64,000 nt of DNA from an uncultured archaeon (GCA_964640225.1 CAZXFI010000001.1:51507-115506); one strand, 5' to 3'. Shown: positions 782 to 35,274, numbered from the stretch's first letter. Numbers and translations: made by a program. Notes: a model not told the origin generated them from the letters alone.

Positions 782-3034
782 ATGGTCTGCGAATACGAAC
801 TGGACAACGGCGTTCTCAAGGTCAACTGCCTGGGCTGCATTCACGGCGCAAGCGTGGAGGACTACGACGACTGCATGGCGAGGGTGGTTGACAAGGTAAT
901 AGAAAACAAGGGAGTTGAGAGCATAGTCCTTTCCAAGGAAAGGGAGTACGAATACAACAGGGAGCAGACCCAGATGATAGTTGAGCTGGCCGGAGCCCTC
1001 AAGGAGATAGTGAGAAACAAGGCCCTTCTCAACCCGCTTGAAGAGGGGGAATGCAAAAACGTAACAGACAAAAAAGCGGCCAGCCTCAGGAGGCTTATAC
1101 TCGGGAGGATGAGAAGCGATCCCATAGGAACTTACGTGGCACTGAAAAGAATGATAAGGCACACGAGAATAAGAATAAGCTCCCTCCCGGAAAAAAAGGC
1201 CCGGTGCAACGAGATTTTTCTTGAAAAGGTTCTTATCCCCATAAGGGGCATTTTTGAGGAGCTTGAAATCATAAAGAAGGTAAGGCCCTTCCTGGGAAAA
1301 TACAGGACCGGAGACCGCTCGGTATACAGGGAAATATTCCACCCCACGATAAAGCCCAAGTTCATGAGAACCAAGTACGTTTCCGTGCCCCCGGAAAAAA
1401 GCGAGATAGTGGACAGGTACGAGCTTCCAGGAAAGATACAGGTTGAGATATACAGGAAGCCCGACACGGTGCGCTGCTTTTACCACGTCACCCCCCCGGA
1501 ACTTAGGCTTTCCGAGGACAAGTACACCATCCTGGACGCTGCCATAAGGTACATGACCCAGCACAAGCCCAAGACAACTGAATTCGCCGAGCCCGATAAG
1601 ATGAGGGAGGTCTTCTCCAACATAGGAAGGGACCTGATAGCCGACATAACAGAGCAGATGGGGCTGCGGCTGTCCTCCCAGGACGTGGAGGAGCTCACCT
1701 CAATACTCGTACGATACACCTCGGGGCTGGGCATAATAGAGGTCATACTGGCGGACCAGAAGATCCAGGACGTTTACATAAACTCCCCCGCGGGAGAGCT
1801 CCCCATTTACCTTTACCACTCCGACTTCCAGGAATGCGAGACCAACCTGATTCCCACGCAGGAAGACGCGGAATACTGGGCCACCAGGTTCAGGATTCTT
1901 TCCGGCAGGCCCCTGGACGAGGCGAATCCCGTCCTGGACACGCAGGTTTCCGTTCCCGGAGGAAGCGCGAGGATAGCCGTGATAACCAGGAGCCTGTCAC
2001 CGGAGGGCCTGGGATTTGCCATAAGGAGGCACAGGGACCAACCCTGGACTTACCCGCTTTTCATTCAGCCCAGCGTGGGATATATGAGCCCGCTTTTCGC
2101 GGGATTCATGTCTTTCGTGATTGACGGAGCCCGGACATTCCTGATAGGAGGAACCAGGTCCTCGGGCAAGACCTCCCTGCTGAACGCCTCCCTGCTGGAG
2201 ATAATGAAGAAAAACAGGATAATCACGGTTGAGGACACGCTGGAACTCAGCGTGGAGAGGATGAAACAGCTGGGCTTCAACGTGGAGAGGCTGAAATCCC
2301 GCTCGGTGATAACGCAGGTTGAAACGGAGCTGCCCACCGAGGAAGCCATAAGGACCGCCCTCAGGCTCGGAGACTCTTGCCTTATTCTGGGGGAAGTCAG
2401 GTCAACTGAGGCCAAGGCGCTTTACGAGGCCATGAGAGTCGGAGCGCTGGCCAACACGGTCGCGGGCACCATACACGGGGAAAGCGCCTACGGGGTTTTT
2501 GACAGGGTCGTGAACGACCTTGAGGTGCCGGCCACCTCGTTCAAGGCGACCGATTTGATAGTGATATGCAACATGCTCAGGTCCCCGGACGGGCTTCACA
2601 ACTTCAGGAGGGTCGTGGCCGTCACCGAGGTAAGGAAGCACTGGAAGGACGACCCCGTAAGGGAGAACGGCTTCGTGAACCTCATGGAATACTCGGCCAA
2701 GGATGACGAACTGAAACCCACATCCACCTTCCTTAACGGGGAAAGCATGGTCCTTAACGACATAGCAAGAAAAGTCAGGGAATGGTCCGGGAACTGGGCG
2801 GCTGTATGGGAGAACATAGAGCTGAGGAGCAGGGTAAAGAAGACGATAACGGACACGGCCCTCAGGACGGGAAAGCTTGAGCTCATGGAGGCACCTTTCG
2901 TGGTAAGGTCAAACGAGAAGTTCCACATAATCTCGGACGAGGTCAAGAGGGAACTGGGCTCAATAGACGCTAACGTGGTCTATGAAAAGTGGAGCGGCTG
3001 GCTAAGGGAAGTAATAAAGAAGGAAAGATTCTAG
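782..3034 (+). CDS. Type II/IV secretion-family assembly ATPase (archaeal FlaI/PilB/GspE-VirB11 superfamily); ORF track starts at 728 but ATG 782 is preferred
   Basis: Walker A GGTRSSGKTSLLNA and Walker B-like CLILGEVRSTEA in a roughly 750 aa protein. A polytopic platform gene lies immediately downstream. A TATA-like TTTTTTATATTCC sits about 20 nt upstream of ATG 782, suggesting a leaderless start. Confidence 0.8.
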   Translation: MVCEYELDNGVLKVNCLGCIHGASVEDYDDCMARVVDKVIENKGVESIVLSKEREYEYNREQTQMIVELAGALKEIVRNKALLNPLEEGECKNVTDKKAASLRRLILGRMRSDPIGTYVALKRMIRHTRIRISSLPEKKARCNEIFLEKVLIPIRGIFEELEIIKKVRPFLGKYRTGDRSVYREIFHPTIKPKFMRTKYVSVPPEKSEIVDRYELPGKIQVEIYRKPDTVRCFYHVTPPELRLSEDKYTILDAAIRYMTQHKPKTTEFAEPDKMREVFSNIGRDLIADITEQMGLRLSSQDVEELTSILVRYTSGLGIIEVILADQKIQDVYINSPAGELPIYLYHSDFQECETNLIPTQEDAEYWATRFRILSGRPLDEANPVLDTQVSVPGGSARIAVITRSLSPEGLGFAIRRHRDQPWTYPLFIQPSVGYMSPLFAGFMSFVIDGARTFLIGGTRSSGKTSLLNASLLEIMKKNRIITVEDTLELSVERMKQLGFNVERLKSRSVITQVETELPTEEAIRTALRLGDSCLILGEVRSTEAKALYEAMRVGALANTVAGTIHGESAYGVFDRVVNDLEVPATSFKATDLIVICNMLRSPDGLHNFRRVVAVTEVRKHWKDDPVRENGFVNLMEYSAKDDELKPTSTFLNGESMVLNDIARKVREWSGNWAAVWENIELRSRVKKTITDTALRTGKLELMEAPFVVRSNEKFHIISDEVKRELGSIDANVVYEKWSGWLREVIKKERF

Positions 3035-3066
3035 TTATTTATAAAAACGGCTATCATAATTAAATC

Positions 3067-5166
3067 ATGGCCAAGCCCCCGAAGAAGACAGAGGAAGACA
3101 TAAGAAGGGAGGAAATAAAGAAAATTCTCAGCGAGACAAGCCCGGAGTTCAAGCATCTTGCCGGGAGCAGAATAGAGACCCAGAGCAAGGAATACAAGGA
3201 GTTCAAGGAAGAAGAGATTGAAAAAAAGCTTTCTGTTTATGAAAAACTGTGCAACTTATCCGAGAAAATAGGTCTGGAACCGGATAAGGAAATGGCACGG
3301 AAAATGCAGGATGCCATAGATTTTGCGCACCTCAGGATTACACCGAAAGGGGCCTTTTCCTTTGCCATAGTGGCATGCGTCTCAATAATTTTCCTTACCA
3401 TAATCGGAACAATAACCGAGCTGGCCCTGACCGGAACCGCCAACGTAAACAATCTGCTAATATTCTTCGGTATTTCCATAGCCTCCCTGTTCGCGCTTAC
3501 AAAATACCCGGAATTCGTTGCCGACAACTTCAGGATAAAGGCCGCGCAGGAGATAATACTTGCCATAATTTACATGGTAATATACATGAGGACTTCGCCC
3601 CAGATGGAGGGGGCGGTAAGGTTCGCGGCCAAGAACCTCTCCGGCCCGCTGGCCTACGACCTGAGAAAGATACTTTGGGACGTGGAAACCAGAAGGTACG
3701 AGACAATTTACGACGCGATGACGGACTACCTGAAAGGGTGGGAAAAGAACAAGGAATTCATGGAGGCCATACAGCTCATAAGAACTAGCCTGGAGCAGCC
3801 CGAGGCCAAAAGGTACCAGATGCTGGACGAGGCAATAAACATAATACTTCAGGGGACCGAGGAGAAAATGAGACACTATTCGCAGTCTCTGAGGACTCCG
3901 GTGACCATAATATACGCGCTCGGGATAACGCTCCCCGTGCTCGTACTGGTTTTATTTCCCATCATCATGCTCATGCTGAGCGACACCATAAACCCGCTTT
4001 TCCTGGTAGTGGGCTATGACGTGGTGCTGCCGATATTGATATTCGTTATAAGCTACGAGATTCTCATGCGAAGGCCCATAGGATACAGTACGCCCGACAT
4101 AACGCTTCACCCCAAATATTCCCCGCTGGGAAAGCTCAAGCTGGTGCTAATGGGAAAGGAAAAGTTTATGCCGCTATGGCCCATGGGCGCCGCGGTGTCC
4201 GTACCCTTTGTTATTGCCGGGGTGCTGATAATGCTTTCGGACCCGTCTCCCGTGGGCTTCATCAACCTGGTCGGCTCCCTTGTCTTCGTGTGGGGCCTGG
4301 GAATAGGTTTTGCCGTGGTGTTCCTGATTGAAAGCAAGATGAAAATAGGCATCAGGAACCAGATAAAGAGCATACAGGACGAGTTCAGCGAGGCCCTGTT
4401 CCAGCTTGGCAACAGGCTGGCCCTGGGCAACCCCATGGAAAAGGCAATGGAGCAGACCATAGAAAAGGCTTCAAACCTGAAAATATCGGACCTTTTCAGG
4501 AAGGCCCTCCGCAACATAAAGAGAAGCAGCCTCCCGCTTGAGGCGGCGCTGTTTGACAGGAAAGTGGGGGCAATATGGGAATACCCATCCAAGCTCGTGA
4601 TAAACGTCATGAAAATACTCTTTGAGGCCACGAAAAAAGGCGTGAAGAACGCGGCACTGAGCGCCATATCAATATCCCGCTACGTCAAGCAGATACACAA
4701 CATAGAGGAAAGCCTGAAAGAGATGCTCAGCGAATCCACGGCAAGCATGAGGGTTCTGGGAATGTTCATCGCGCCCCTGATAGCCGGGGTAACTGTAACG
4801 ATGACAGCCATAATGATGATGATATTCAAGACTCTGGGAGAGCTCATGGGAACGCTTGAGATTACGGAAGGCAACACGGTCGGGGGAATGGGACTCCAGA
4901 ACCTCATGATAGGCTCCTGGGGAACAGTAGGAAACATACTGACAATAGGCGTTTTCCAGATAATCGTGGGTGTGTATATGATTGAAATCGGGTATCTGCT
5001 GGCCTACCTGGTCTCGGGAATAGACAACGGCCAGGGAGACCTTATTGGTAGGAGGGAACTGGCCGGGTACAACATTTTAATAGGACTGGCTGTATATACT
5101 CTTACAGTGCTTGTCACGTATTTCATATTCGCTCCCATGGTGGGAGTGCTCGTGGGCACAATGTAG
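3067..5166 (+). CDS. Polytopic membrane platform protein of archaeal type IV pilus/archaellum-like systems (FlaJ/TadC/GspF-like)
   Basis: 699 aa with multiple hydrophobic helices in N- and C-terminal blocks separated by a cytoplasmic domain, as in FlaJ/TadC. It is translationally coupled downstream of the secretion ATPase. Confidence 0.65.
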   Translation: MAKPPKKTEEDIRREEIKKILSETSPEFKHLAGSRIETQSKEYKEFKEEEIEKKLSVYEKLCNLSEKIGLEPDKEMARKMQDAIDFAHLRITPKGAFSFAIVACVSIIFLTIIGTITELALTGTANVNNLLIFFGISIASLFALTKYPEFVADNFRIKAAQEIILAIIYMVIYMRTSPQMEGAVRFAAKNLSGPLAYDLRKILWDVETRRYETIYDAMTDYLKGWEKNKEFMEAIQLIRTSLEQPEAKRYQMLDEAINIILQGTEEKMRHYSQSLRTPVTIIYALGITLPVLVLVLFPIIMLMLSDTINPLFLVVGYDVVLPILIFVISYEILMRRPIGYSTPDITLHPKYSPLGKLKLVLMGKEKFMPLWPMGAAVSVPFVIAGVLIMLSDPSPVGFINLVGSLVFVWGLGIGFAVVFLIESKMKIGIRNQIKSIQDEFSEALFQLGNRLALGNPMEKAMEQTIEKASNLKISDLFRKALRNIKRSSLPLEAALFDRKVGAIWEYPSKLVINVMKILFEATKKGVKNAALSAISISRYVKQIHNIEESLKEMLSESTASMRVLGMFIAPLIAGVTVTMTAIMMMIFKTLGELMGTLEITEGNTVGGMGLQNLMIGSWGTVGNILTIGVFQIIVGVYMIEIGYLLAYLVSGIDNGQGDLIGRRELAGYNILIGLAVYTLTVLVTYFIFAPMVGVLVGTM

Positions 5167-5174
5167 GTGTAAAA

Positions 5175-5288
5175 ATGAAAGGAATCTTGGGTTACGGGCT
5201 TTGGCAGACCATAGTGGCCGTCACGATAGGCCTTGCACTTGTGCTTTTCATAATAGCAATGTTCTACAACGTGTGGGGGGCGATATAA
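5175..5288 (+). CDS. Mini single-pass membrane peptide (37 aa), pilin-like N-terminus MKG-ILGYGLWQTIVAV
   Basis: ATG preceded by GGTGTAAAAATG. Sequence is MKGILGYGLWQTIVAVTIGLALVLFIIAMFYNVWGAI. Its stop overlaps the next start (TAATG). Confidence 0.45.
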   Translation: MKGILGYGLWQTIVAVTIGLALVLFIIAMFYNVWGAI

Positions 5289-5416
5289 TGGAGATGAGAA
5301 TCGTGATAACAATAGCGCTTTTCCTGGTGCTGTTCGTGGTGGCTCTCTTCATACTTGCGCCCAGCCTTTCGGCTTTTTTGGGGCATATCTCTGATATGGG
5401 TTTCACTCCTGAATAA
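5288..5416 (+). CDS. Mini single-pass membrane peptide (42 aa)
   Basis: MEMRIVITIALFLVLFVVALFILAPSLSAFLGHISDMGFTPE. Start overlaps the previous stop. Lies in frame within ORF 5111..5416. Confidence 0.4.
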   Translation: MEMRIVITIALFLVLFVVALFILAPSLSAFLGHISDMGFTPE

Positions 5417-5448
5417 TTTTATATTTAAAACAGGATATAATATTATTC

Positions 5449-5646
5449 ATGGACAAGAAGATGGCCGAAATAATATTTGTTATACTTGTTTTCCTGGTAG
5501 GCTTCATATTTTTCATAGCAATGTTCGGTGAAACTTTGGGAATAGGTACTATTTTCACAAAAATGTGGTGCTACGGGTACTGCGCCATGAAGATAACCAA
5601 TCCGTTGTGGGGCGGCGCAATTCCGGGAGGTTTTTGCGGATGCTGA
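5449..5646 (+). CDS. Small membrane peptide (65 aa) with C-terminal Cys/Gly-rich tail
   Basis: MDKKMAEIIFVILVFLVGFIFFIAMF followed by CYGYC and GGFCGC. ORF-track entry. Confidence 0.45.
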   Translation: MDKKMAEIIFVILVFLVGFIFFIAMFGETLGIGTIFTKMWCYGYCAMKITNPLWGGAIPGGFCGC

Positions 5647-5798
5647 AGGGGGTGTCGCACCTGATGTGGTTCGTGCTTGCCTTCGTGGTTATAGTGATAC
5701 TGATAGCAGTCAGCGTGCTTATACTCAATCAGGGGCAAGGCTATGCCCTGGGTGGCATAGAAGACATGATAAACAGCGTCAGTGACATGATAGGGTGA
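5640..5798 (+). CDS. Mini single-pass membrane peptide (52 aa), class III-like MLKG-VSHLMWFVLAF
   Basis: ATG overlaps the previous gene's stop (GGATGCTGA). KG followed by a roughly 25-residue hydrophobic helix. Confidence 0.45.
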   Translation: MLKGVSHLMWFVLAFVVIVILIAVSVLILNQGQGYALGGIEDMINSVSDMIG

Positions 5799-5802
5799 TT
5801 AT

Positions 5803-5970
5803 TTGAAAAAGGGATTTTCCGGCTTGCCTTCAATGGTTTACATAATAATAATACTGGTAGTGGCAGTCGCGGTGTTCTTTTTCATCTACATGAACGTGGA
5901 GGGCAACGCGGACAGCATATTTGATGCTATGAGGGACATTTTAAAGGGTATCCCTCCCGACTTGGGGTGA
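5803..5970 (+). CDS. Mini single-pass membrane peptide; probable TTG start (KKG-FSGLPSMVYIIIILVVAV), alternative ATG at 5833
   Basis: In-frame TTG AAA AAG GGA TTT begins 5 nt after the previous stop. K-K-G then a hydrophobic helix. Ends GIPPDLG. Confidence 0.35.
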   Translation: MKKGFSGLPSMVYIIIILVVAVAVFFFIYMNVEGNADSIFDAMRDILKGIPPDLG

Positions 5971-5998
5971 CTTTGTGGGATATCTAACGTGGCAGAGC

Positions 5999-6118
5999 AT
6001 GACAGGAAAAATATGGACAATCCTGCTGTTCGTCATCATCCTTATAATAATGTTCCTGATAATAACCGCCGTGGTGCCGGAAATGCAGCTGATAGCGGGA
6101 GTTTTTGAGGAGATGTGA
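5999..6118 (+). CDS. Mini single-pass membrane peptide (39 aa)
   Basis: MTGKIWTILLFVIILIIMFLIITAVVPEMQLIAGVFEEM. Stop lies 3 nt before the next gene's ATG (6122). Confidence 0.4.
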   Translation: MTGKIWTILLFVIILIIMFLIITAVVPEMQLIAGVFEEM

Positions 6119-6121
6119 AAA

Positions 6122-6904
6122 ATGGCGAAAGGCTCAATAGACAAAATACTTTCAATATTCATAGCAGCGGTCGTGATTCTTTTGATAGTTGCCGCTGCCT
6201 ACAACGTCATAAAAGGATTGGGAGCCCACATGGCCGAGTCTATATCAACCGGAAGTTCGGCTGAAGACATAGCAGACGCGGTGAACGACATCAACGAATG
6301 CATAGAGGAAAACGGCGAAGGCAGATGCACCGAGGAAATAACCCTGGATATAAGCGTGCCACAGGGGCTCGAAGACAGCGGAATGCCTTACGTAGGTGCG
6401 GACCCCCTGTGGGTAATTTACCACGACAAGTGCCTTTCAAACGATGATGATACGGGCTTGCCGGGAGAAAACGACGACTCCTGTGAAAACATAGGGGATG
6501 TGGAACCCCTGGTGAAGGAAAGTGACTGCGAGTGCCACAGTCTGTGGGACAGCGGAAAATTCGCGCCCAGGTGCGAGAACGACTTTTGCTGGGGAATGGT
6601 GGAAAACCAGGCTCCGGGAAGGTCGCAGGTAAACCCGAGAGCCCTGGAAAGGCTCCAGTCTTTCTACATAATAGACCCGTGCTACGCCAGAATCAAAGTG
6701 CGCGAGAACCCGGCCAATCCCGGGAAGATAGAGATATGCTTTGAAGAGCCTCTTGAACCTCCCGTGCCCGGCTACGCCAACTGGTGCTGCGCTGATCCAG
6801 ACAAGGTGGACTGTGCCTTGCAACCGCCCATGGGAAAAGAGTGGCCGTTTACTGCTAACGGGGTGTGGAATGGTCTGCAAACAGGCACCTGCCATAAATG
6901 CTAG
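6122..6904 (+). CDS. Secreted Cys-rich protein with archaeal class III (prepilin-like) signal peptide
   Basis: N-terminus MAKG-SIDKILSIFIAAVVILLIVAAAY (K-G-S then a hydrophobic helix). The remainder is hydrophilic with about 20 Cys. Confidence 0.55.
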   Translation: MAKGSIDKILSIFIAAVVILLIVAAAYNVIKGLGAHMAESISTGSSAEDIADAVNDINECIEENGEGRCTEEITLDISVPQGLEDSGMPYVGADPLWVIYHDKCLSNDDDTGLPGENDDSCENIGDVEPLVKESDCECHSLWDSGKFAPRCENDFCWGMVENQAPGRSQVNPRALERLQSFYIIDPCYARIKVRENPANPGKIEICFEEPLEPPVPGYANWCCADPDKVDCALQPPMGKEWPFTANGVWNGLQTGTCHKC

Positions 6905-6912
6905 TGATTTGA

Positions 6913-8132: not shown

Positions 8133-8580
8133 AATTAGGAAAGGTTTCGTGATACAGGTATTCACTCTGTTTTTCATAATAGGCCTTACGATGGGCATTT
8201 TCATAGCAGGCATCCTTATAGCTTCGGGCCACCTGAAGCTAATACTGGCCGTTGAAACCAATTTTGAAAGACCCTCCATGACGCAGATTTCCGCCAATTC
8301 TTTCATGAGAATGGAAAACAGCTACCCGGATCAGGGAAACGAGATGAGAAACATTATGTCCAACTTCAGGAACAGCGGCGACGACGCCGTTCTCAGGCAG
8401 GCCATAACAGATTCCATGGATGAGATGTTTGACGTGGTGGGGGACAGCAGCAACGTGATGGTGAAGGTGGGAGACCTTTACTTCAACAAGGGGCTTATGG
8501 GAGACCATGACACGGGCTTCGGGCTGGTTGCTTACCCTGAAGGCCAGGCGGAAAAAATACAGGTGAGGGTTTACAAATGA
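8086..8580 (+). CDS. Pilin-like secreted protein; the real start is probably TTG around 8128-8131, giving MIEIRKG-FVIQVFTLFFIIGL
   Basis: ATG 8086 overlaps the upstream gene by 47 nt. The in-frame sequence TTG ATT GAA ATT AGG AAA GGT TTC gives a canonical R-K-G-F class III motif just before the hydrophobic helix. Confidence 0.45.
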   Translation: MNAKKVNLTDWTELIEIRKGFVIQVFTLFFIIGLTMGIFIAGILIASGHLKLILAVETNFERPSMTQISANSFMRMENSYPDQGNEMRNIMSNFRNSGDDAVLRQAITDSMDEMFDVVGDSSNVMVKVGDLYFNKGLMGDHDTGFGLVAYPEGQAEKIQVRVYK

Positions 8581-10079
8581 CTGGTAGAAAAGGCATTGCC
8601 ATAGGAATAGCCCTTTTGATAGGATTTTTCTTGGCAATGGGAGGCATTCTCCTGGCAATACTCGGCTTCACGCTGGGCCTGACCCAGGCAATAACCATGG
8701 AAACTGCATACGACGCCAAAACCCTCATAGAGGACAAGCTCCATTTTGACTCGGAAAGGCACTACCTTGAGAACGGGCTCTGGGTCGCCGGGGCTTACGC
8801 CGCCTTCAAGAACGGGGAAAACGGGGGCATATACAACGACGGGTGGGACACCTGCTCCGGCTACGTTTGCTGGAGGGACCACGACGACCTGAAAATACCA
8901 CCGGAGAATCAGGTAACTGACGAGGTTTTTGAAAGAACCGACGACACCTTTCAGGATTATTTTTCAAACACGGAGTACACCGTGATGGAAGAAACTCCTT
9001 TGGGGGAGCCGGATATAACCCCGCTGGAAATGGAATACGACAGGCAGGAATTCAGTTTTTCCTACAGGATAGCCGAGCTGAACCTTTCCGGCGATTCATA
9101 CGACCAGTCGCACGAAATGAGGGAGAGACGCGTCTGGATTAACACCACAATTCCCATCAGGTACCTCAGCCTTTACGATGACGCCTCCGGCTTTGCCACG
9201 AACTCGCGCACAAGGCTCAACGACAAGGTAATAGACGCGCTGGACGACGTGACCGTGTGCAAGGGCCAGGGCCAGCTCACGCAGAGCGCCGCGCAGAACA
9301 AGATTCAGGACGCTCTTGACGGAATAGCGGGAGACGAAACAAACGGATTTGAGTGGGAACTGCAGCTGCTTCAGATAGACGACTTTGAGGAAGTACAGGG
9401 CCCGCCCAACCTGAGGTACAGGATAGTTTTCACGGTTCTCGTTACCGTGAGGGACAAGGAGGACGGAAGGAGGGTTCCGAACACCGACAGCGTGGAGAAG
9501 CTGGGAATTAGGTTTGCTTTGAAAGATGAGATAGTCTTTGATAGGGTTGTTTACCAGATATGCGACTGCGGGGTGGAGTGCACGGGCCAGTCCAAATGCC
9601 AGGGCGAGACCATACCCGCGGACACATGCGACGGTAGCGTCAGGGTGATATGGAGGGTTGAAGGGACCACCACGAGCGAGGCCCCGGGAGACTGCTCCTC
9701 CGGAGACGACTGCTACTGCGAGAAGAGGATTGAATGCGCTCCGGCACCTTGCTGCGTGGATGTTTGCTGCGCCGCGGGCGAGTCGTGCTGCGGAGGCACC
9801 ACCTGCTGTGGCAATGCCTGTTGTGGAGGGACGTGCTGTGGAGCAGGGGACTTCTGCTGTGACGACAAGTGCTGCAGCGGCGATTCCTGCTGCGGTACCA
9901 CGTGCTGCTCAAGCACCTGCTGCGACGGGAACTCGTGCTGCACGGACACGTGCATCGGCGGCTCCTGTGTGGACTGCGGAGGCTGCAGTTGCGCACCAAT
10001 GGGCCCGTGCCAGTTCGGTACATGCCCGCTTGCATGCTGCCCCGGCTGCATAGGAATATGCTGTGCCCCTGGGCCTTAA
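8577..10079 (+). CDS. Large secreted pilin-like protein (class III signal MTGRKG-IAIGIALLIGFF) with an extreme C-terminal CC-dipeptide repeat domain
   Basis: 500 aa. The C-terminal roughly 110 residues read CCVDVCCAAGESCCGGTTCCGNACCGGTCCGAGDFCCDDKCCSGDSCCGTTCCSSTCCDGNSCC. The DNA shows TGCTGC recurring about every 21 nt. Confidence 0.6.
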   Translation: MTGRKGIAIGIALLIGFFLAMGGILLAILGFTLGLTQAITMETAYDAKTLIEDKLHFDSERHYLENGLWVAGAYAAFKNGENGGIYNDGWDTCSGYVCWRDHDDLKIPPENQVTDEVFERTDDTFQDYFSNTEYTVMEETPLGEPDITPLEMEYDRQEFSFSYRIAELNLSGDSYDQSHEMRERRVWINTTIPIRYLSLYDDASGFATNSRTRLNDKVIDALDDVTVCKGQGQLTQSAAQNKIQDALDGIAGDETNGFEWELQLLQIDDFEEVQGPPNLRYRIVFTVLVTVRDKEDGRRVPNTDSVEKLGIRFALKDEIVFDRVVYQICDCGVECTGQSKCQGETIPADTCDGSVRVIWRVEGTTTSEAPGDCSSGDDCYCEKRIECAPAPCCVDVCCAAGESCCGGTTCCGNACCGGTCCGAGDFCCDDKCCSGDSCCGTTCCSSTCCDGNSCCTDTCIGGSCVDCGGCSCAPMGPCQFGTCPLACCPGCIGICCAPGP

Positions 10080-10095
10080 GAGGTGAAAAGGGAAA

Positions 10096-10683
10096 ATGAA
10101 AGGAGACATATCCCCGTGGGTCTTGATAACGATAATAATAGTCTTCATAGCCCTGGGAATCACGCTTGTCGCGCTTTACCAGGCCAGGCTCCAGGAGGGA
10201 GTAGATGAGGCCATAACGGAAACGGACATACCGGTTGCTGGTGACGATGAACTTTCAACTTGCACGGACAGCGACGGGGGCAGAAATTATTTTACCGAGG
10301 GCAGTGTTACCACGTACACGGAAACTTATGACGACGAATGTGACTCGGGGCAGGCCACGGAACACCTGTGCCTGACGGTCATGGACGAGGTAGACACGGT
10401 TACCTATGTTTGCCCCAACGGCTGCGACGGGAACGCATGCAGCGACACACCCCATGTACTAGACGAATGCGAGGACAGTGACGGGGGCAAAAACTACTTT
10501 GCCCAAGGCACGGTGACTCTGGGCCCGGAAATCTACCAGGACGAGTGCAAGCCTATAGGAGACCAGAGTGTCCTAGTGAAGGAATACTTCTGTGAAAAGG
10601 AGGAGGACAACCCGGTTGAAGTGAAGTATACCATTTACCAATGTCCTATTCTTTGTGAAGGAGGGGCTTGCTTAGAGGGTTGA
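10096..10683 (+). CDS. Secreted protein with class III signal (MKG-DISPWVLITIIIVFIAL) and two tandem Cys-containing repeats of about 60 aa with a C-[TE]-DSDGG-[RK]-NYF motif
   Basis: The repeats CTDSDGGRNYFTEG...CPNGCDGNAC and CEDSDGGKNYFAQG...CPILCEGGAC are visible in the translation. Confidence 0.55.
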   Translation: MKGDISPWVLITIIIVFIALGITLVALYQARLQEGVDEAITETDIPVAGDDELSTCTDSDGGRNYFTEGSVTTYTETYDDECDSGQATEHLCLTVMDEVDTVTYVCPNGCDGNACSDTPHVLDECEDSDGGKNYFAQGTVTLGPEIYQDECKPIGDQSVLVKEYFCEKEEDNPVEVKYTIYQCPILCEGGACLEG

Positions 10684-10687
10684 TAAA

Positions 10688-11068
10688 ATGAGTAAGGGAG
10701 TTTCATTCTGGGTCATGATAACCATAGTTGCCGTTCTTATACTGCTGGTGGTTATAGCTTCAGGACTGGTCAACCTCAACCCCCAGGGAAGGATAGATGA
10801 CACAATGGGAGAGGTTGAAATCAAAGGGGCATGCGACCATTTTCAATGCCCGCAGGGCTCTTGTTGCAAGGAAGGTGGGGGAACAGACTACCAGACCAGG
10901 CAGTGCATAAAGAACGACACGGAAAGCTTAAGAGACACCTGTACTGACGCCACCGGTGAGAGGCTTGGCTCAACCTACGTAAAGGAATATTATTGCGATG
11001 GGAATATCATAAGGGCAGACATACACTACTGCGGCACGAACAGTTGCATGAACGGAGCCTGCACCTGA
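10688..11068 (+). CDS. Small secreted Cys-rich protein with class III signal (MSKG-VSFWVMITIVAVLIL), related to the C-terminal repeat of the upstream gene
   Basis: KEYYCDGN...YCGTNSCMNGACT resembles KEYFCEKEED...YQCPILCEGGACLEG of 10096..10683. Confidence 0.5.
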   Translation: MSKGVSFWVMITIVAVLILLVVIASGLVNLNPQGRIDDTMGEVEIKGACDHFQCPQGSCCKEGGGTDYQTRQCIKNDTESLRDTCTDATGERLGSTYVKEYYCDGNIIRADIHYCGTNSCMNGACT

Positions 11069-11104
11069 TTGAGCAAGAATTTAAATGATTAAGATGAAAT
11101 CTTA

Positions 11105-12553
11105 TTGTGGTTAATGATGGCAAGCGTGATTTTCCGGATAATCGCCATAATAGCCGCTCTTATTGTTCTCAGCATAGCCATAATTTTCATGCTCGGCCTT
11201 CCGATGGAAGAATCGGCCGAGGTGCTTCGGCAGGAGCAGATTGACCAGCAGGTGGACAAATTGTGCCCCTCCTCCAGGCAGTCGCCTACCATGGTTTTTC
11301 TTCAGCTAAACGGCGACTGCGGGCGGTGTGAAAACCCCGGTCCGCCCCCCTGCAACCCGTTCTGCAACGACGCCTCAGCCTGGTACCAAGTCTGCCAAGA
11401 TGAAAGGCCCGACGGAGAGGTAACTGTGGCAGATTATTGGCAATGTGACGCTCCGGAGGGGGGTAGTTGTATGGTTACCAAGATATCATACTACCAGTGG
11501 GTATACAACGGATGCCGTTTATCAAGAATCAATCCCATACTTGGTTTCAACGATTACAGGATTTACAAGGGCACGGACCCCACGGGCGACCTGGACTTTG
11601 AAGAATGGGACAACTGCAGCGAAGGCTATGGAATGGGCTCCAGGTGGTGGGATTTATTCTGTGCCGATGACGAATGCAAATACATCTCAAGCGTGAGTCC
11701 AATCCTGGACAATAAAGGAGTTTACGGGGAGGGACAAGACTTGTATTTCTCTATAAATTTTGTCACTGCTATAAAAGACCCGTACGACAGACTGCTTAAT
11801 CCCGAATACGGCATCTGCGAGGGAACTGTCTGCAAAAGGCATGAAGAGGAGTTCCACCACTATGAACTGAAAGTAGCGGGAAGGTACTGCTGCCCTGAGG
11901 GCACGGAGTGGAACACGGACTTCCAGGCATGCTGCGGGGAGGATGACTGCGCGGACGCCGACTGCAGGGAAATCGGGGGCACCTGGCTCTACGGTGAATG
12001 CTGGTTCATGGGAAGCGGCGGGGAAAGCTGCAGCGAGGTTTGCGAGGACAAAAACGCGGTGTGCAAGAATCCGGATGACTGGGCGAGCGTGCCGAAAGAC
12101 TGCGCGCTTCACGAGGAGGTTTTCAAGGACATGGGACTTTATCCCGTGCCGTTTAACTGCACTTTTTGCCTTCAGAACATGCTGCCTCCGCCAGAATGGT
12201 ATTCCCCGTATTCAGGCTCCCTGACAAAATGCTATTACAAAAACAACGAGGCCCCGCCACCCTTTGACGATTACATGTGCGACGCGGTGGCTCCGGGAGG
12301 CAAGCCCAGAATCTGCGCCTGCGAGCCCCTTTGCCCCGGGCCGGACCTGAACGGCCGCGTTCCCGCTCCCAGTTATTTTGCCGGGACGTGCCAGGGCGGG
12401 TGCCACGGCGATTATTACTACCACACGGGCTATGGAAGGTGTTACTGGGACTACCTGGGGCACGCGGAAAACGACCCGTGGGGCGAATCATGCATATGGA
12501 GACATTCGGCGGACTGCGCCGAGGCCCAGTGCACGGCCGCGGGCTGCATCTGA
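11105..12553 (+). CDS. Large N-terminally anchored extracellular Cys-rich protein (paralog A)
   Basis: N-terminal helix IFRIIAIIAALIVLSIAIIFMLGL. About 40 Cys. Shares blocks with 12567..13976 (CCPEGTEWNTDFQACCGEDDC, GECWFMGSGGESCSEVCED, CALHEE, RICACEPLCPG). Confidence 0.55.
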   Translation: MWLMMASVIFRIIAIIAALIVLSIAIIFMLGLPMEESAEVLRQEQIDQQVDKLCPSSRQSPTMVFLQLNGDCGRCENPGPPPCNPFCNDASAWYQVCQDERPDGEVTVADYWQCDAPEGGSCMVTKISYYQWVYNGCRLSRINPILGFNDYRIYKGTDPTGDLDFEEWDNCSEGYGMGSRWWDLFCADDECKYISSVSPILDNKGVYGEGQDLYFSINFVTAIKDPYDRLLNPEYGICEGTVCKRHEEEFHHYELKVAGRYCCPEGTEWNTDFQACCGEDDCADADCREIGGTWLYGECWFMGSGGESCSEVCEDKNAVCKNPDDWASVPKDCALHEEVFKDMGLYPVPFNCTFCLQNMLPPPEWYSPYSGSLTKCYYKNNEAPPPFDDYMCDAVAPGGKPRICACEPLCPGPDLNGRVPAPSYFAGTCQGGCHGDYYYHTGYGRCYWDYLGHAENDPWGESCIWRHSADCAEAQCTAAGCI

Positions 12554-12566
12554 TGCGGTGAAAAAG

Positions 12567-13976
12567 ATGAGCAAGGAAAATTTTTTCGGTGTGTTGATAA
12601 CAATCGTGATAATGCTTTTGGTTCTCGTGATAATAACCGGAAGCCTGTCCAACGTGGACTCCCTGGGGAAGACAGACGAGGCCATGGAGCAGTCCATGGG
12701 GCTTGCCGACACCTTCAAGGTGCCCTACACCCTGTGCGGCGACGGAAGGATGTCCGGGGGCTACCAGAGGACCATTGACACCGCGGGCGAGGCTACCGTC
12801 TTTTTCAGGGAACTGAGCGGGACTTTTGACTGCTCCCTGGAAGGCACCGGCGAGGGGGAGTGCATAATATACGGGCTTTACAGGAGAGAGTGGTGCGCAG
12901 ACGGCGGGTTCCTTTGCGGGAACGGCAACGGGGAGAACATAGGCACCTACCAGTTCACCGTGGACTCAGGGGAACCGGAGCTTGCCCTTGACTTCACCCC
13001 GGAATGCGTGGACAACGTCAATGTCCAGGGCTGCTGCGTAAATCCGAAAAAGGGAGACGGAAGGGACTGGCTCTGCGACTGGTGGATTTACGAGTGGACT
13101 TATTACGGAGACAAGGGATTCCTCAACATAACCGTGGGAAACGGGGAAAGCGTGGATGTCTGGAGCAGGTTCGCCGACAAGTGGGAAGGAGGCGCGGTGG
13201 AGGACCCGCACAACTGCAGCTACGGGGGCGACATGTACCAGTTCCACAAGGAAAGCTACAAGTACAAGAATGGGGAGCTGGCCGTCAGATACGTAAAATG
13301 CTGTCCCAATGGTTACACGTGGAACGATAATTATAAAACATGCTGCTATGACGAGGCCTGCACCAACTACCTGTGCAGATACCCGGCCTTTTTCATGTTC
13401 GGGACCTGCTGGATGGTTAGCGAACCCGGGGAAAGCTGCGAGCAGGCCTGCCTGAGAACGGGAAAGACCTGCAGCCTTGAAGCGCTTGAGAACGCGATTT
13501 CTGAAGGCCTGGAAGACAACTGCGACCTGCACGCGGAGGCCGGCTACGCATGCGCAAACTGCAACGAGGCCACGGGATCGGAAAACACGCTTGCCCCGTA
13601 CTTTGACCCCCCCGGCGACTGCTACTATTACAGCGAGGCCGAGGCCGCGGCAAACCCGTTTGACTGCGGGACATCGGACCCGGGCCTGAACAGGATATGC
13701 CCCTGCAAGCTCACCGGAAAAACCGGTGAAGATTATAAATGCGACCATCTGGTCCACGAGCCCGGAACCTGCATGGACGAGGACGGGGGGCTTGTCTGGG
13801 ACGTGGCTGCCTGCGTGATAAACGACAGTTATTCGTGGAGGGACCAGTGCCATGACCCCGGCACGGGAGCCAGCGTGCCGGAGAGCAATACTTTAAGAGA
13901 GCATTTCTGCGGCTCCGGTGACGTTATAGGAACACAGCTCCATTCCTGTGCGTGCAGAGACGGGACCTGCGTCTAG
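12567..13976 (+). CDS. Large N-terminally anchored extracellular Cys-rich protein (paralog B); start taken at ATG 12567 rather than the 12378 track start
   Basis: MSKENFFGVLITIVIMLLVLVIITGSL helix. Shares blocks with paralog A (CCPNGYTWNDNYKTCCYDEAC, GTCWMVSEPGESCEQACLRTGKTC, CDLHAE, RICPCKLTG). The 12378 extension overlaps the upstream gene. Confidence 0.55.
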   Translation: MSKENFFGVLITIVIMLLVLVIITGSLSNVDSLGKTDEAMEQSMGLADTFKVPYTLCGDGRMSGGYQRTIDTAGEATVFFRELSGTFDCSLEGTGEGECIIYGLYRREWCADGGFLCGNGNGENIGTYQFTVDSGEPELALDFTPECVDNVNVQGCCVNPKKGDGRDWLCDWWIYEWTYYGDKGFLNITVGNGESVDVWSRFADKWEGGAVEDPHNCSYGGDMYQFHKESYKYKNGELAVRYVKCCPNGYTWNDNYKTCCYDEACTNYLCRYPAFFMFGTCWMVSEPGESCEQACLRTGKTCSLEALENAISEGLEDNCDLHAEAGYACANCNEATGSENTLAPYFDPPGDCYYYSEAEAAANPFDCGTSDPGLNRICPCKLTGKTGEDYKCDHLVHEPGTCMDEDGGLVWDVAACVINDSYSWRDQCHDPGTGASVPESNTLREHFCGSGDVIGTQLHSCACRDGTCV

Positions 13977-14017
13977 CCTGAAATTTATTTAAGCAAGTAC
14001 AATAATTAAGGGATAAC

Positions 14018-14389
14018 ATGAAAGGACTTTCCATTTCAACCAACGTCCTGGTGGCGCTGGCCATAGCGCTCATAGTGCTCCTGGCACTGGTTTCCATGCT
14101 CATGGGAATAGTCCCGGGAACCTCGGAGGCCCTGGGCTGCGAGGCCGACTTCCGGGTGCAGTGCAACAGGTTCATAGCCGCGGGAGGCTGCAAGGAGACT
14201 TCGGGGATGAGCATACTGGACGGATGTATCGGAGTTACGGATAACTGTCCCGGTGCTGAGGGCTACGACGAAGACTGCAGGTTCGTGAAATGCAGCACGG
14301 CAGACTGCGCCCTGGGAACGCTAATTGGAAGCGAAATAGAGGCGGCGTGCTGCGGAACCGAGACCACGACCACCACCGTGGGTCCCTGA
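14018..14389 (+). CDS. Small secreted Cys-rich protein with class III signal (MKG-LSISTNVLVALAIALIVLLAL) and C-terminal Thr run
   Basis: K-G-L motif plus a hydrophobic helix. 11 Cys. Ends TETTTTTVGP. Confidence 0.5.
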   Translation: MKGLSISTNVLVALAIALIVLLALVSMLMGIVPGTSEALGCEADFRVQCNRFIAAGGCKETSGMSILDGCIGVTDNCPGAEGYDEDCRFVKCSTADCALGTLIGSEIEAACCGTETTTTTVGP

Positions 14390-35268: not shown

Positions 35269-35274
35269 GTTTCA

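What the first reader, a model, noticed from the sequence alone, without database searches (positions are those of the whole stretch)
782..14389. 13.6 kb surface-filament or bindosome-like locus: secretion ATPase + platform + six mini-peptides + at least ten class III signal-peptide proteins
A FlaI/PilB-family ATPase and a FlaJ/TadC-like platform lie at the head of a tightly packed, same-strand, translationally coupled array. Six mini-ORFs (37-65 aa) follow, each a single-pass membrane peptide. At least ten secreted or anchored proteins come next. At least six begin with a textbook archaeal class III signal peptide, a basic residue, Gly and a small or hydrophobic residue followed by about 20 hydrophobic residues (MAKG-S, MKG-S, RKG-F, RKG-I, MKG-D, SKG-V, MKG-L). 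Their mature domains are large and very Cys-rich, unlike ordinary short archaeal pilins or archaellins. The architecture resembles, by inference, the Sulfolobus bindosome assembly system (an ATPase, a membrane protein, small pilin-like proteins and large class III-signal substrates) or an adhesive pilus with many minor pilins. The cargo set appears novel. No FlaH/FlaF/FlaG accessory genes are present, so it is not an archaellum.
Basis: partly seen in the sequence, partly recalled or inferred. Interest (0 to 1): 0.8.

Follow-up and report, generated by a model that had tools for sequence, protein, structure and literature searches.

The report
DPANN archaeal pilus locus with mini-pilins
This is a type IV pilus-like surface-filament gene cluster of a tiny symbiotic (DPANN, Aenigmatarchaeota-like) archaeon. 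Its motor genes are already widely seen in such genomes, but its pilin genes, including six conserved mini-proteins and fast-evolving cysteine-rich surface proteins, are not described in the papers I could search.

Summary
Window 782-14389 carries, on one strand and tightly packed:
- a 750-aa T2SSE-family ATPase;
- a 699-aa polytopic platform;
- six mini-ORFs of 37-65 aa;
- ten larger proteins.

All 16 post-platform ORFs start with one N-terminal TM helix. Ten have [KR]-G directly before it: seven large proteins and three mini-ORFs. The large proteins are 6.7% Cys, against 0.88% in the window's other genes.

The architecture is not unique. The same ATPase-platform pair (45-83% identical ATPase) followed by arrays of class III-type proteins occurs in loci labelled Aenigmat-, Nano-, Undin-, Woese-, Pace- and Micrarchaeota. 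Three related loci end with a peptidase A24 gene. The mini-ORFs keep order and reading frame in relatives whose synonymous sites are saturated, so they are real genes.

Best reading: a DPANN-type type IV filament. Helix-only mini-pilins and a small conserved pilin would build the fibre. A conserved A-E set would act as minor or tip pilins. Variable Cys-rich or lectin modules would act as adhesins.

It is not an archaellum, and it fails the bindosome and Tad model cutoffs. The filament, the processing and the function are all inferred. No prepilin peptidase lies in the window, and structure prediction of the cargo failed.

The parts
782..3034 (+). Secretion/assembly ATPase (750 aa) of the T2SSE/VirB11 superfamily. 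It has about 210 extra N-terminal residues and about 60 extra C-terminal residues relative to FlaI. Walker A GTRSSGKTS, Asp box/Walker B LRLGDSCLILGEVR, His box AGTIHG.
   Evidence: Pfam T2SSE 7e-17. NCBIfam FlaI 2e-39, but 136 bits against a 550 cutoff. PDB AfGspE 2OAP 4e-27, FlaI and CpaF about 1e-17. The listed best 120 of 2493 relatives are about 740-770 aa (longer where inteins are inserted) and 52-100% identical over the aligned part. Conserved over its full length across DPANN phyla.
3067..5166 (+). Polytopic membrane platform protein (699 aa, about 9-10 TM segments) with two T2SSF-like repeats, encoded as a single fused gene.
   Evidence: T2SSF E=0.038 at residues 169-296 in the window copy. 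9 of 23 orthologs hit T2SSF, best 1.6e-9. The ortholog profile hits the GspF cytoplasmic domain at positions 440-488, E=0.03. It lies next to the ATPase in nearly all related loci.
5175..5288 (+). m1, mini-pilin candidate (37 aa; MKG|ILGYGLW...; predicted mature length 34 aa).
   Evidence: K-G motif followed by a TM helix. Orthologs in L037 and L038. pN 0.43 < pS 0.85. SD-like TAGGTG upstream.
5288..5416 (+). m2, conserved single-pass mini membrane protein (42 aa) with no K-G motif.
   Evidence: Orthologs in L037 and L038. pN 0.42 < pS 0.69.
5449..5646 (+). m3, conserved mini membrane protein (65 aa) with a C-terminal 4-Cys motif C-x3-C...GGFCGC and no K-G motif.
   Evidence: Orthologs in L037, L038 (two copies) and L002. 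pN 0.39-0.45 < pS 0.81-0.84. A TATA-like box lies in the 32-nt gap upstream.
5640..5798 (+). m4, mini-pilin candidate (52 aa; MLKG|VSHLMWF...; predicted mature length 48 aa: hydrophobic helix plus acidic amphipathic tail).
   Evidence: The K/R-G motif is conserved in L037 (RRG|TSHVLWF), L038 (DKG|VSNMLWF) and L002 (AKG|DSNIVWW). dN/dS about 0.16 against L037.
5803..5970 (+). m5, mini-pilin candidate (55 aa from a TTG start; MKKG|FSGLPSMVYIII...; predicted mature length 51 aa).
   Evidence: SD GGGTGA lies 4 nt upstream of the TTG. KKG is conserved in L037 and L038. The iterated profile reaches 10 loci including Pace- and Woesearchaeota-type ones.
5975..6118 (+). m6, conserved mini membrane protein (47 aa; MGYLTWQSMTGK-TM) with no canonical K-G motif.
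   Evidence: Orthologs in L037 and L038 share the N-terminus MG[YF]LTW..TGK. SD GGGGTGA upstream of the GTG start. pN 0.35 < pS 0.74.
6122..6904 (+). A260, class III-type protein (MAKG|S), 15 Cys, acidic.
   Evidence: Orthologs in L037, L038 (two copies) and L013. No Pfam or NCBIfam hit.
6913..7353 (+). B146, N-terminal TM protein. The first member of a conserved B-C-D-E quartet. No K-G motif in this genome.
   Evidence: Orthologs in L037, L038, L013 (there starting MKG|I) and L002.
7350..8132 (+). C260, class III-type protein (MKG|S), 10 Cys; candidate minor pilin.
   Evidence: Found in 11 loci including Undinarchaeota L017. 46 cluster representatives among 1.84 billion. AF2 model with pLDDT 69: helix 3-54 followed by an antiparallel sheet. 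No significant PDB fold match.
8086..8580 (+). D164, class III-type protein (start probably TTG 8125: MIEIRKG|F), no Cys.
   Evidence: Orthologs in L037 and L038. Proteins of similar size (149-189 aa) sit at the same position in other loci.
8577..10079 (+). E500, modular class III-type protein (MTGRKG|I). It has a conserved N-terminal module of about 330 aa. Its variable C-terminal module here has 48 Cys, including 12 CC doublets spaced 5-7 residues apart.
   Evidence: The N-terminal module is conserved in L038, L031, L002, L034, L007 and L037. The L002 ortholog ends in a C-type lectin domain, 6e-13. It is not a DNA tandem repeat.
10096..10683 (+). F195, class III-type protein (MKG|D) with two copies of a roughly 70-aa 6-Cys domain (C.DSDGG.NY..G...D.C...EYFC...C..C..GAC).
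10688..11068 (+). G126, class III-type protein (MSKG|V) with one copy of the same 6-Cys domain.
11114..12553 (+). H482/479, Cys-rich (39 Cys) protein with an N-terminal TM helix and no K-G motif; paralog of I468.
   Evidence: BLASTP against I468 1.8e-12. Only 2 non-self relatives among 5.8 billion proteins. No Pfam hit.
12567..13976 (+). I468, Cys-rich (35 Cys) protein. Its N-terminus is paralogous to G126 but reads MSKE instead of MSKG. It has the central domain shared with H482 and a C-terminal 6-Cys domain shared with F195 and G126.
   Evidence: The AF2 model is unusable (pLDDT 37.6).
14018..14389 (+). J123, small class III-type pilin candidate (MKG|LSISTNVLVALAIAL...), 10 Cys, Thr-rich tail. 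It is the window protein whose family recurs most widely among the related loci.
   Evidence: The iterated profile finds 39 ORFs across nearly all related loci. The alignment consensus is KKG-x-x-L-x-x-N-x-I-I. A TATA-like box lies in the 41-nt gap upstream.

Best explanation
This is a DPANN-type member of the type IV filament (archaeal type IV pilus) superfamily.

Proposed mechanism:
- A hexameric secretion ATPase (782-3034) drives a polytopic platform (3067-5166).
- The platform extracts membrane-inserted proteins whose short basic leader has been cut after [KR]-G by a prepilin peptidase encoded elsewhere in this genome.
- The freed proteins polymerise through their N-terminal hydrophobic helices into a surface filament.

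Proposed roles of the parts:
- The helix-only mini-pilins m1, m4 and m5 (predicted mature lengths 34-51 aa), together with the small conserved pilin J123, are the likeliest fibre subunits.
- The conserved A-B-C-D-E set acts as minor or priming/tip pilins.
- E500, F195 and G126 display fast-evolving Cys-rich modules on the fibre. H482 and I468 lack a cleavable motif, so they would display theirs on the membrane. In relatives the module is a C-type lectin.
- These modules would act as adhesins for attachment to a host cell or a surface.
- The non-K-G mini-proteins m2, m3 and m6 are probably membrane accessory subunits of the machine.

Shown: the families of the ATPase and platform; the N-terminal motif pattern and its enrichment; conservation of the gene set and its order; coding constraint on the mini-ORFs; and a peptidase A24 gene inside three related loci.

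Inferred: cleavage, filament formation, which protein is the major subunit, the tip-complex role and the adhesive function.
For: - ATPase family.
- Platform family.
- All 16 downstream ORFs have an N-terminal TM helix, 10 of them with [KR]G. Only 4 other hits occur in the whole window (three artefacts, one unexamined small ORF).
- Across 26 loci there are 165 class III-type ORFs downstream of the platform (0.88 per kb) against 0.097 per kb in controls. The consensus is [N/M]-K-K-G, the median leader is 6 aa, and about 30% have a predicted mature length of 31-65 aa.
- A peptidase A24 gene (PF01478, 2e-10, with both Asp motifs) closes the arrays in L028, L025 and L029.
- The mini-ORFs keep order, frame and K-G motifs in L037 and L038, with pN < pS while synonymous sites are saturated.
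- The C260 model has a 52-residue N-terminal helix followed by a beta-sheet.
- E500 orthologs carry Lectin_C or Cys/Thr-rich tails.
- In L002, LamG proteins with the pilin-type N-terminus MRPKG|VSPVIASIILVLIAIA lie just upstream of the ATPase.
- Known precedent for globular-domain-less pilins: the Epd major pilin and Tad/Flp pilins (bioRxiv 10.64898/2026.04.22.720090, section 9; PMC10710030 abstract).
Against: - No prepilin peptidase lies in the 64-kb window, so processing in this organism is unproven.
- No array protein matches any pilin, Flp or class III-signal HMM.
- The I468 model failed (pLDDT 37.6), so an adhesin fold is not shown for this window's cargo.
- Three of the ten large proteins and three of the six mini-proteins lack the K-G motif.
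- No expression, proteomic or imaging data were available.
Confidence: 0.62

Rival explanations
1. A bindosome-like or pseudopilus anchoring system. The machine would build only a short stub or sheet of mini-pilins at the membrane. Its job would be to hold the large Cys-rich class III proteins in the cell envelope, as a surface layer, a metal- or substrate-binding coat, or a contact patch, rather than to extend a long adhesive pilus.
For: - The layout matches the Bas idea: an ATPase, a membrane protein, several very small pilin-like proteins and many large class III-signal proteins.
- Three large proteins lack a cleavable motif and would stay membrane-anchored.
- The 2026 preprint argues that class III-signal binding proteins functionalising TFF machines are widespread in archaea (10.64898/2026.04.22.720090, abstract).
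Against: - The BasE model scores 65.5 bits against a cutoff of 1000.
- None of the large proteins has a solute-binding-protein domain or any Pfam domain.
- No ABC importer is linked to the locus. The only ABC genes in the window (34012-36932, minus strand) are MacB/FtsX-type and lie 20 kb away.
- A conventional small pilin family (J123) is conserved in almost all loci.
Confidence: 0.2
2. A DNA-uptake (competence-type) pilus. The filament would bind and retract extracellular DNA, which the nucleotide-auxotrophic DPANN cell imports as a nutrient.
For: This has been proposed in the literature for DPANN pili in general (PMC7414124, PMC9563170). Com-type pili likewise have a set of about four minor pilins.
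Against: - No ComEA/ComEC-like channel, nuclease or DNA-binding domain was found in the locus or in the Pfam-scanned remainder of the window.
- There is no second (retraction) ATPase. According to PMC4858521, archaea lack PilT.
- The array proteins are strongly acidic (for example F195 has 40 D+E against 8 K+R), which is unfavourable for DNA binding.
- Lectin and LamG modules in relatives point to glycan or cell binding.
Confidence: 0.1
3. A type II secretion-like piston. A short pseudopilus of mini-pilins would push the Cys-rich proteins out of the cell as soluble effectors against the host.
For: The core machinery is the same as in T2SS. The cargo genes are hypervariable and strain-specific, as effectors often are.
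Against: T2SS cargo uses Sec or Tat signals and is not pilin-like. Here the 'cargo' itself carries the pilin-type N-terminus, which would be retained after cleavage and would keep it in the membrane or the fibre. Archaea have no outer-membrane secretin to pass.
Confidence: 0.05

Closest known systems
Epd pilus of Methanococcus maripaludis (archaeal TFF 'system 1')
   Same: - One same-strand multigene cluster (11 genes in M. maripaludis).
- A major pilin that lacks a globular domain.
- Several minor pilins, each required for piliation.
- A dedicated A24 peptidase encoded with the system in some genomes, as in L025, L028 and L029 here.
- A role in adhesion.
(Sources: 10.64898/2026.04.22.720090 section 9; PMC3875500.)
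   Different: - System 1 is defined by two separate platform genes. Here there is one fused 699-aa platform.
- The ATPase here is 750 aa with large extra N- and C-terminal regions.
- No array protein hits the class III-signal or pilin HMMs.
- There are six distinct mini-protein families rather than one short pilin.
- The modules are Cys-rich.
- The clade of the ATPase relative to Epd was not determined.
Bacterial Tad/Flp pilus (CpaF-TadB/C-Flp-TadE/F-TadV)
   Same: - An ATPase of the same branch (CpaF 4e-17 in PDB; TadA model 1.5e-32).
- Helix-only pilins of about 45-50 mature residues.
- Accompanying larger pseudopilins.
- The peptidase encoded in the locus in some genomes.
   Different: - The TadA/CpaF model scores 113 bits against a 373 cutoff.
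- There is no Flp G/XXXXEY motif and no Flp_Fap HMM hit.
- There is one platform gene rather than TadB plus TadC.
- The host is an archaeon, so there is no secretin or RcpA-type outer-membrane part.
Haloferax volcanii / euryarchaeal PilB-PilC adhesion pili (Makarova clades 2, 4C, 4F)
   Same: - An ATPase and TadC-like platform pair with sets of several distinct pilins, including a variable-length minor pilin.
[quoted passage not shown]
- There are weak hits from L002's ortholog of C260 to DUF7285 (0.004) and from one other, unidentified quartet-family member to DUF7287 (0.03); I recall these as haloarchaeal families, which I did not check.
   Different: - No PilA-family (PF07790-type) major pilin is present in the array.
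- Mini-pilins are present.
- Clade membership of this ATPase could not be tested, because no reference arCOG sequences were available.
Sulfolobus bindosome assembly system (BasEF-BasABC)
   Same: An ATPase, a membrane protein and small pilin-like proteins, plus large class III-signal proteins that are not classical pilins.
   Different: - The BasE model scores far below its cutoff (65.5 against 1000).
- Bas substrates are sugar-binding proteins encoded with ABC transporters elsewhere in the genome.
- Here the large proteins sit in the locus, have no binding-protein domains and are Cys-rich.
Modular pilins and minor-pilin tip complexes of bacterial T4P/T2SS (S. sanguinis PilB/PilC; GspH-I-J-K; PilVWX-FimU-PilY1)
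   Same: - A conserved set of about four pilin-like proteins of graded size.
- The largest (E500 family) carries a swappable C-terminal binding module: a lectin in L002, Cys-rich here.
- The concept is described in PMC8179133 and PMC9934059.
   Different: No sequence or fold similarity was detected. The complex itself was not modelled. This is analogy only.
Type IV pili of Saccharibacteria (CPR episymbionts)
   Same: An ultrasmall episymbiont lineage in which T4P are highly conserved and mediate host binding (PMC9894109, PMC12206443). This is the functional analogy for a DPANN cell.
   Different: Those are bacterial T4aP machinery with PilT retraction and conventional globular pilins. They are evolutionarily separate from this locus.

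Membership tests
Type IV filament superfamily (archaeal type IV pilus-like systems) | Secretion ATPase of the T2SSE/VirB11 family with Walker A, Walker B/Asp and His boxes | tested here: met
   Pfam T2SSE 61.6 bits, above the 24.9 cutoff. PDB hits to AfGspE, FlaI and CpaF. The motifs GTRSSGKTS, LRLGDS..GEVR and AGTIHG are invariant across orthologs.
Type IV filament superfamily (archaeal type IV pilus-like systems) | Polytopic platform protein with T2SSF (GspF/PilC/TadC/FlaJ) domains next to the ATPase | tested here: met
   The window copy is below the cutoff (14.4 against 25.2 bits). However, 9 of 23 orthologs hit T2SSF, best 1.6e-9, and the ortholog profile hits the GspF cytoplasmic domain at the second repeat (E=0.03). 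It lies next to the ATPase in nearly all related loci.
Type IV filament superfamily (archaeal type IV pilus-like systems) | Filament proteins with a class III signal peptide: a short basic leader, [KR]-[GA] at positions -2/-1, then a hydrophobic helix of about 20 residues | tested here: met
   10 of the 16 array ORFs fit, against 4 other hits in the whole window, three of them artefacts. In 160 motifs from the related loci, position -1 is G 135 times and A 25 times, and position -2 is K 130 times and R 30 times. This is motif-level evidence only; cleavage was not shown.
Type IV filament superfamily (archaeal type IV pilus-like systems) | Prepilin (class III signal) peptidase of family A24 in the genome | tested here: inconclusive
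   None was found in the 64-kb window (multi-TM ORFs scanned; tblastn). One is present inside three related loci, L028, L025 and L029 (PF01478, 2e-10). The rest of this genome was not available.
Archaellum | FlaI/ArlI-equivalog ATPase | tested here: not met
   NF058587 scores 135.8 bits against a cutoff of 550. The ATPase also carries about 270 extra residues.
Archaellum | Archaellins plus FlaH/ArlH (KaiC-like), FlaF, FlaG and FlaJ in the locus | tested here: not met
   No Arch_flagellin, KaiC-type or FlaF/G hit on any array protein or on the other scanned ORFs of the window.
Bindosome assembly system (Bas) | BasE-type ATPase | tested here: not met
   NF053672 scores 65.5 bits against a cutoff of 1000.
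Bindosome assembly system (Bas) | Substrates are solute-binding proteins with class III signals, linked to ABC importers | tested here: not met
   No SBP domain in any of the ten large proteins. No ABC importer lies next to the locus.
Tad/Flp pilus | TadA/CpaF-equivalog ATPase and Flp-family pilin (G/XXXXEY motif, PF04964) | tested here: not met
   TIGR03819 scores 113.1 bits against a cutoff of 373. No Flp_Fap hit for any mini-protein even at E<=10. There is no EY motif after the K-G.
Epd pilus / archaeal TFF system 1 | Two separate platform genes | tested here: not met
   There is a single 699-aa platform gene.
Epd pilus / archaeal TFF system 1 | Major pilin without a globular domain | tested here: met
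   m1, m4 and m5 have predicted mature lengths of 34, 48 and 51 aa. This is a resemblance in form only; homology to arCOG06620 was not tested.
Makarova 2016 ATPase clades (1, 2, 3, 4A-J) / arCOG01817-01819 | Phylogenetic placement of the ATPase among reference arCOG sequences | not testable with these tools
The only indirect information is from PDB, where AfGspE (97.8 bits) scores above FlaI (66) and CpaF (65).

The most novel reading that the evidence does not exclude
The DPANN-wide machine (750-aa ATPase plus fused 700-aa platform) may assemble a fibre whose body is a heteropolymer of several distinct helix-only subunits of only 31-51 residues. These would be among the smallest pilins proposed. 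The conserved A-E set would form a tip complex carrying hypervariable Cys-rich or lectin modules that determine host range. Such a thin, largely hydrophobic fibre would be an archaeal counterpart of Tad/Flp pili. It could be the long-sought device by which DPANN cells attach to, and possibly breach or bridge, the host envelope.
Probability: 0.2. Interest if true: 0.75.

Novelty: new variant of a known kind. Interest (0 to 1): 0.5.

Why it matters
DPANN archaea are obligate or likely symbionts, and how they attach to their hosts is an open question.

Genome papers routinely report 'type IV pili' in them from the ATPase and platform genes alone. Two of them say explicitly that no pilins could be found (PMC4858521 for 'nanoarchaea'; PMC9563170 for Nanohalo- and Undinarchaeota).

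This locus and its relatives suggest that the missing pilins sit directly downstream of the platform. They were probably overlooked because many are 33-75-aa ORFs, and the rest evolve too fast for HMM annotation.

This gives three concrete leads:
- a candidate subunit list for cryo-EM and proteomics of DPANN filaments;
- a conserved minor-pilin set that can be tested as a tip complex;
- a hypervariable, Cys-rich or lectin-bearing module that is a plausible determinant of host specificity.

It is not a new kind of machine.

Tried and rejected
- Pfam and NCBIfam on all large array proteins gave no hits. Pfam at E<=10 on the mini-proteins and J123 gave only noise, with no Flp_Fap or Class_IIIsignal hit.
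- Pfam at E<=1 on 31 members of the A, B, C, D and E families from nine loci gave only isolated weak hits: DUF7285 at 0.004 and DUF7287 at 0.03.
- Prepilin peptidase in the window: I scanned the multi-TM ORFs and ran tblastn with the L028 and L025 peptidases. All negative. ORF 41952-42548 (4 TM) is not A24.
- AF2 of I468 with its few relatives failed (pLDDT 37.6), so disulfide pairing and the adhesin fold could not be assessed.
The afdb50 library was unavailable.
- The platform against PDB by sequence gave nothing on its own.
- H482 is essentially an orphan.
- tRNA and Rfam scans of the window were empty. TRF found no DNA repeats behind the CC-repeat tail.
An exact look-up of the platform protein found nothing.
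- Chance or artefact was rejected because of the 9-fold motif enrichment and the conserved synteny. The archaellum, Bas, Tad and Epd memberships were rejected as set out in the membership table.

Full report
**What is in the sequence**

Between 782 and 14389 the + strand carries 18 consecutive ORFs with gaps of -7 to +41 nt. An independent gene call on the identical public contig (Logan SRR7048224_77838, L001) gives almost the same set. Downstream lie unrelated housekeeping genes: Alba-like, proteasome alpha-like and SBDS-like ORFs (named from their translations), then ORFs at the Rrp4 position and two RNase PH-domain (Rrp41/42-type) proteins, prefoldin and a HerA/Mre11/Rad50 cluster. The unit therefore ends at 14389. 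Most starts are preceded by SD-like GGTGA/GGAGG motifs. These include the TTG at 5803 and the GTG at 5975, which restore conserved N-termini.

**The two machine genes**

ORF 782-3034 (750 aa) passes the Pfam T2SSE cutoff (61.6 against 24.9 bits). Its best solved relatives are the Archaeoglobus GspE-type ATPase 2OAP (4e-27), FlaI (1e-17) and CpaF (4e-17). It falls far below the NCBIfam cutoffs for FlaI (136/550), TadA (113/373) and BasE (65.5/1000). So it belongs to the superfamily but to none of those named systems.

ORF 3067-5166 (699 aa, about 9-10 TM segments) hits T2SSF only weakly by itself (E=0.038). However, 9 of 23 orthologs hit T2SSF, down to 1.6e-9. An ortholog profile also matches the GspF cytoplasmic domain at a second position. 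That fits a two-repeat GspF/PilC/TadC/FlaJ-type platform.

**The array**

A FlaFind-like scan shows that every one of the 16 ORFs after the platform begins with a single hydrophobic helix. Ten have [KR]-G immediately in front of it. The same scan over the rest of the window, on both strands and with internal starts allowed, gives four other hits: two in antisense ORFs, one at an internal start of the platform, and the small ORF 51719-51910, which I did not examine.

The ten larger proteins are 6.7% Cys against 0.88% for 37 other genes in the window. All their Cys residues lie after the N-terminal helix. None of these proteins has a second TM segment or a C-terminal anchor. They are acidic.

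E500 ends in twelve CC doublets spaced 5-7 residues apart. This is not a DNA tandem repeat. F195 (two copies), G126 and the C-terminus of I468 share a roughly 70-residue six-Cys domain. H482 and I468 share a central domain.

**This is a clade-wide locus type**

The ATPase has 2493 relatives at E<=0.001. The 120 best listed are about 740-770 aa (longer where inteins are inserted) and 52-100% identical over the aligned part. Where a source names them, most are Aenigmatarchaeota or Micrarchaeota. A scan of GTDB species genomes returned 30 archaeal loci labelled Aenigmat-, Nano-, Undin-, Woese-, Pace- and Micrarchaeota, with 44-79% ATPase identity. The platform lies next to the ATPase in nearly all of them.

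Downstream of the platform these loci carry the same kind of array. Across 26 loci there are 165 class III-type ORFs (0.88 per kb), against 0.097 per kb on the antisense strand and upstream. The consensus is [N/M]-K-K-G, and the median leader is 6 residues. About 30% of the predicted mature products are only 31-65 residues long.

In L028, L025 and L029 the array ends with a 281-aa peptidase A24 gene (PF01478, 2e-10; motifs VVQD and FAGGDAKLM). This ties the motif to the enzyme class that cleaves it. The window itself has no such gene.

**The mini-ORFs are genes**

Two closer relatives, L037 (ATPase 83% identical) and L038 (74%), keep m1 to m6, A, B, C, D and E in the same order. For all six mini-ORFs pN (0.24-0.45) is well below pS (0.69-0.96), with synonymous sites saturated.

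They form six different families:
- m1, m4 and m5 keep the K/R-G motif.
- m3 keeps a C-terminal C-x3-C...GGFCGC motif.
- m6 keeps MG[YF]LTW..TGK.
- m2 has no motif.

After cleavage, m1, m4 and m5 would be 34, 48 and 51 residues: a hydrophobic helix, followed in m4 and m5 by a short acidic amphipathic tail. That is the size and layout of the Tad/Flp pilins and of the Epd major pilin, which also lack a globular domain (10.64898/2026.04.22.720090 section 9; PMC10710030). No HMM links them to those families.

**Conserved and variable large proteins**

- J123 belongs to a small-pilin family (about 100-180 aa, 6-10 Cys, N-terminus KKG-x-x-L-x-x-N-x-I-I) that recurs in nearly all loci.
- C260 recurs in 11 loci, including an Undinarchaeota one. 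It has only 46 cluster representatives among 1.84 billion, so it evolves much faster than the ATPase.
- A run of four proteins of graded size (B about 150 aa, C about 200-260, D about 165-185, E about 250-1000) recurs across loci.
- In the E family the N-terminal 330 residues or so are conserved. The C-terminus is swapped: Cys-rich here, a C-type lectin in the complete Aenigmatarchaeota genome CP066684.1, and Cys/Thr-rich in L034 and L038.
- In CP066684.1, two LamG-domain proteins with a textbook pilin N-terminus lie directly upstream of the ATPase.
- F195, G126, H482 and I468 are specific to this lineage. H482 has two non-self relatives among 5.8 billion proteins.

**Interpretation**

The simplest account is a type IV filament of a DPANN-specific variant. 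Three of the four defining components are met. The fourth, the peptidase, is found only in related loci.

The division of labour I propose is inferred from size, conservation pattern and analogy with bacterial minor-pilin complexes and modular pilins (PMC8179133, PMC9934059):
- mini-pilins and J123 as the fibre;
- A-E as the minor or tip set;
- Cys-rich, lectin and LamG modules as adhesins.

An adhesive, host-contact role fits the lectin and LamG modules, the hypervariability of the distal genes, and the precedent of T4P-dependent episymbiosis in Saccharibacteria (PMC9894109). It is not demonstrated.

A bindosome-like anchoring role remains a real alternative. DNA uptake and T2SS-like secretion are less likely.

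**Limits**

- Transcription was not tested. The only gaps longer than 30 nt (before 782, 3067, 5449, 11105 and 14018) each contain a TATA-like AT-rich box about 20-35 nt upstream of the start. Several promoters in series are therefore possible.
- Placement of the ATPase among the Makarova clades could not be done.
- Structure prediction of the Cys-rich cargo failed.

**Relation to the literature**

DPANN 'type IV pili' are commonly reported from the ATPase and platform genes. PMC4858521 states that the cognate pilins of the 'nanoarchaeal' ATPases could not be identified. PMC9563170 states that no pilins are annotated in the Tad-like clusters of Nanohalo- and Undinarchaeota. The 2026 TFF census places DPANN systems in system 1 or 4A without describing such arrays.

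Within the searchable literature I found no description of the mini-pilin arrays or of the conserved A-E set. I therefore rate this as a new variant of a known kind, of moderate interest.

Noticed in passing
window 587-715 (+): A small soluble ORF (42 aa, MKKEEKLPIYEVCGNDCIGILENGRLVTKFRLKKIKNFLGKE) lies just upstream of the ATPase. It is conserved at the same position in L037 (9773-9913) and L038 (9793-9939). Its function is unknown, and it may be an additional component or regulator of the locus.
   Followed up: partly
ATPase orthologs P0038, P0073, P0091 (about 1264 aa), P0086, P0094 (about 915 aa): Some orthologs of this ATPase carry intein domains (PF14890 Intein_splicing, with or without PF14528 LAGLIDADG_3).
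   Followed up: no
L002 (CP066684.1) 5717-6790 and 8317-9957: Two LamG (Laminin_G_3) surface proteins directly upstream of the ATPase start with canonical pilin-type N-termini (MRPKG|VSPVIASIILVLIAIA and MRLKG|ISGLMVAIFLTLIAVG). DPANN LamG 'host-interaction' proteins may therefore be pilin fusions.
   Followed up: partly
window 12567-13976 compared with 10688-11068: The N-terminus of I468 is paralogous to that of G126 but reads MSKE where G126 has MSKG. That is a Gly-to-Glu change at the predicted -1 cleavage position, which should block prepilin-peptidase processing and leave the protein membrane-anchored.
   Followed up: no
window 3035-3066, 5417-5448, 11069-11104, 13977-14017 and about 745-781: Each of the only intergenic gaps longer than 30 nt contains a TATA-like AT-rich box (TTTATAAAAA, TTTTATATTTAAAA, ATTTAAAT, AAATTTATTTAA, TTTTTTATATT) about 20-35 nt before the start codon. 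These may be internal promoters with short or absent leaders.
   Followed up: partly
window 9750-9945 (E500 residues 392-455): Twelve CC doublets are spaced 5-7 residues apart (CCxxx(x)(x) repeats), followed by further Cys. There is no DNA-level tandem repeat. The fold and any metal or disulfide chemistry are unknown.
   Followed up: partly
window 21935-27920: A DNA-end-processing cluster: HerA-type helicase (DUF87, 21935-23443), an unannotated 264-aa ORF (23850-24644, possibly NurA), Rad50 with a zinc hook (24641-26722, minus strand) and an Mre11-type phosphoesterase (26652-27920, minus strand).
   Followed up: no
window 38495-40768 (+), 31678-33468 (-), 43440-44960 (-): Other probable surface or membrane proteins that lack class III-type N-termini. 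They are a 757-aa Beta_propel protein (PF09826, 3.9e-167), a 596-aa FG-GAP repeat protein, and a 506-aa protein with 3 TM segments and no Pfam hit.
   Followed up: no
window 51719-51910 (+): A lone 63-aa ORF (MFDWWSEFKTVLKG|IIPPVVIILGLLIVW..., with a Lys-rich tail) is the only K-G-plus-helix hit outside the array that is not an evident artefact. It may be a chance match or a stray small membrane protein.
   Followed up: no
L037 12273-16246; L002 12259-12555 (-): The ATPase and platform are not always contiguous. In L037 four genes (UbiA-family and three unknowns) are inserted between them. In L002 an FeS_assembly_P gene sits between them on the opposite strand.
   Followed up: no
L022 (labelled 'uncultured Methanosarcinales') and P0027 (labelled 'Thorarchaeota'): ATPases of this DPANN type appear in MAGs labelled as non-DPANN. 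L022 has no class III array downstream of the platform. This could reflect mis-binning or lateral transfer.
   Followed up: no
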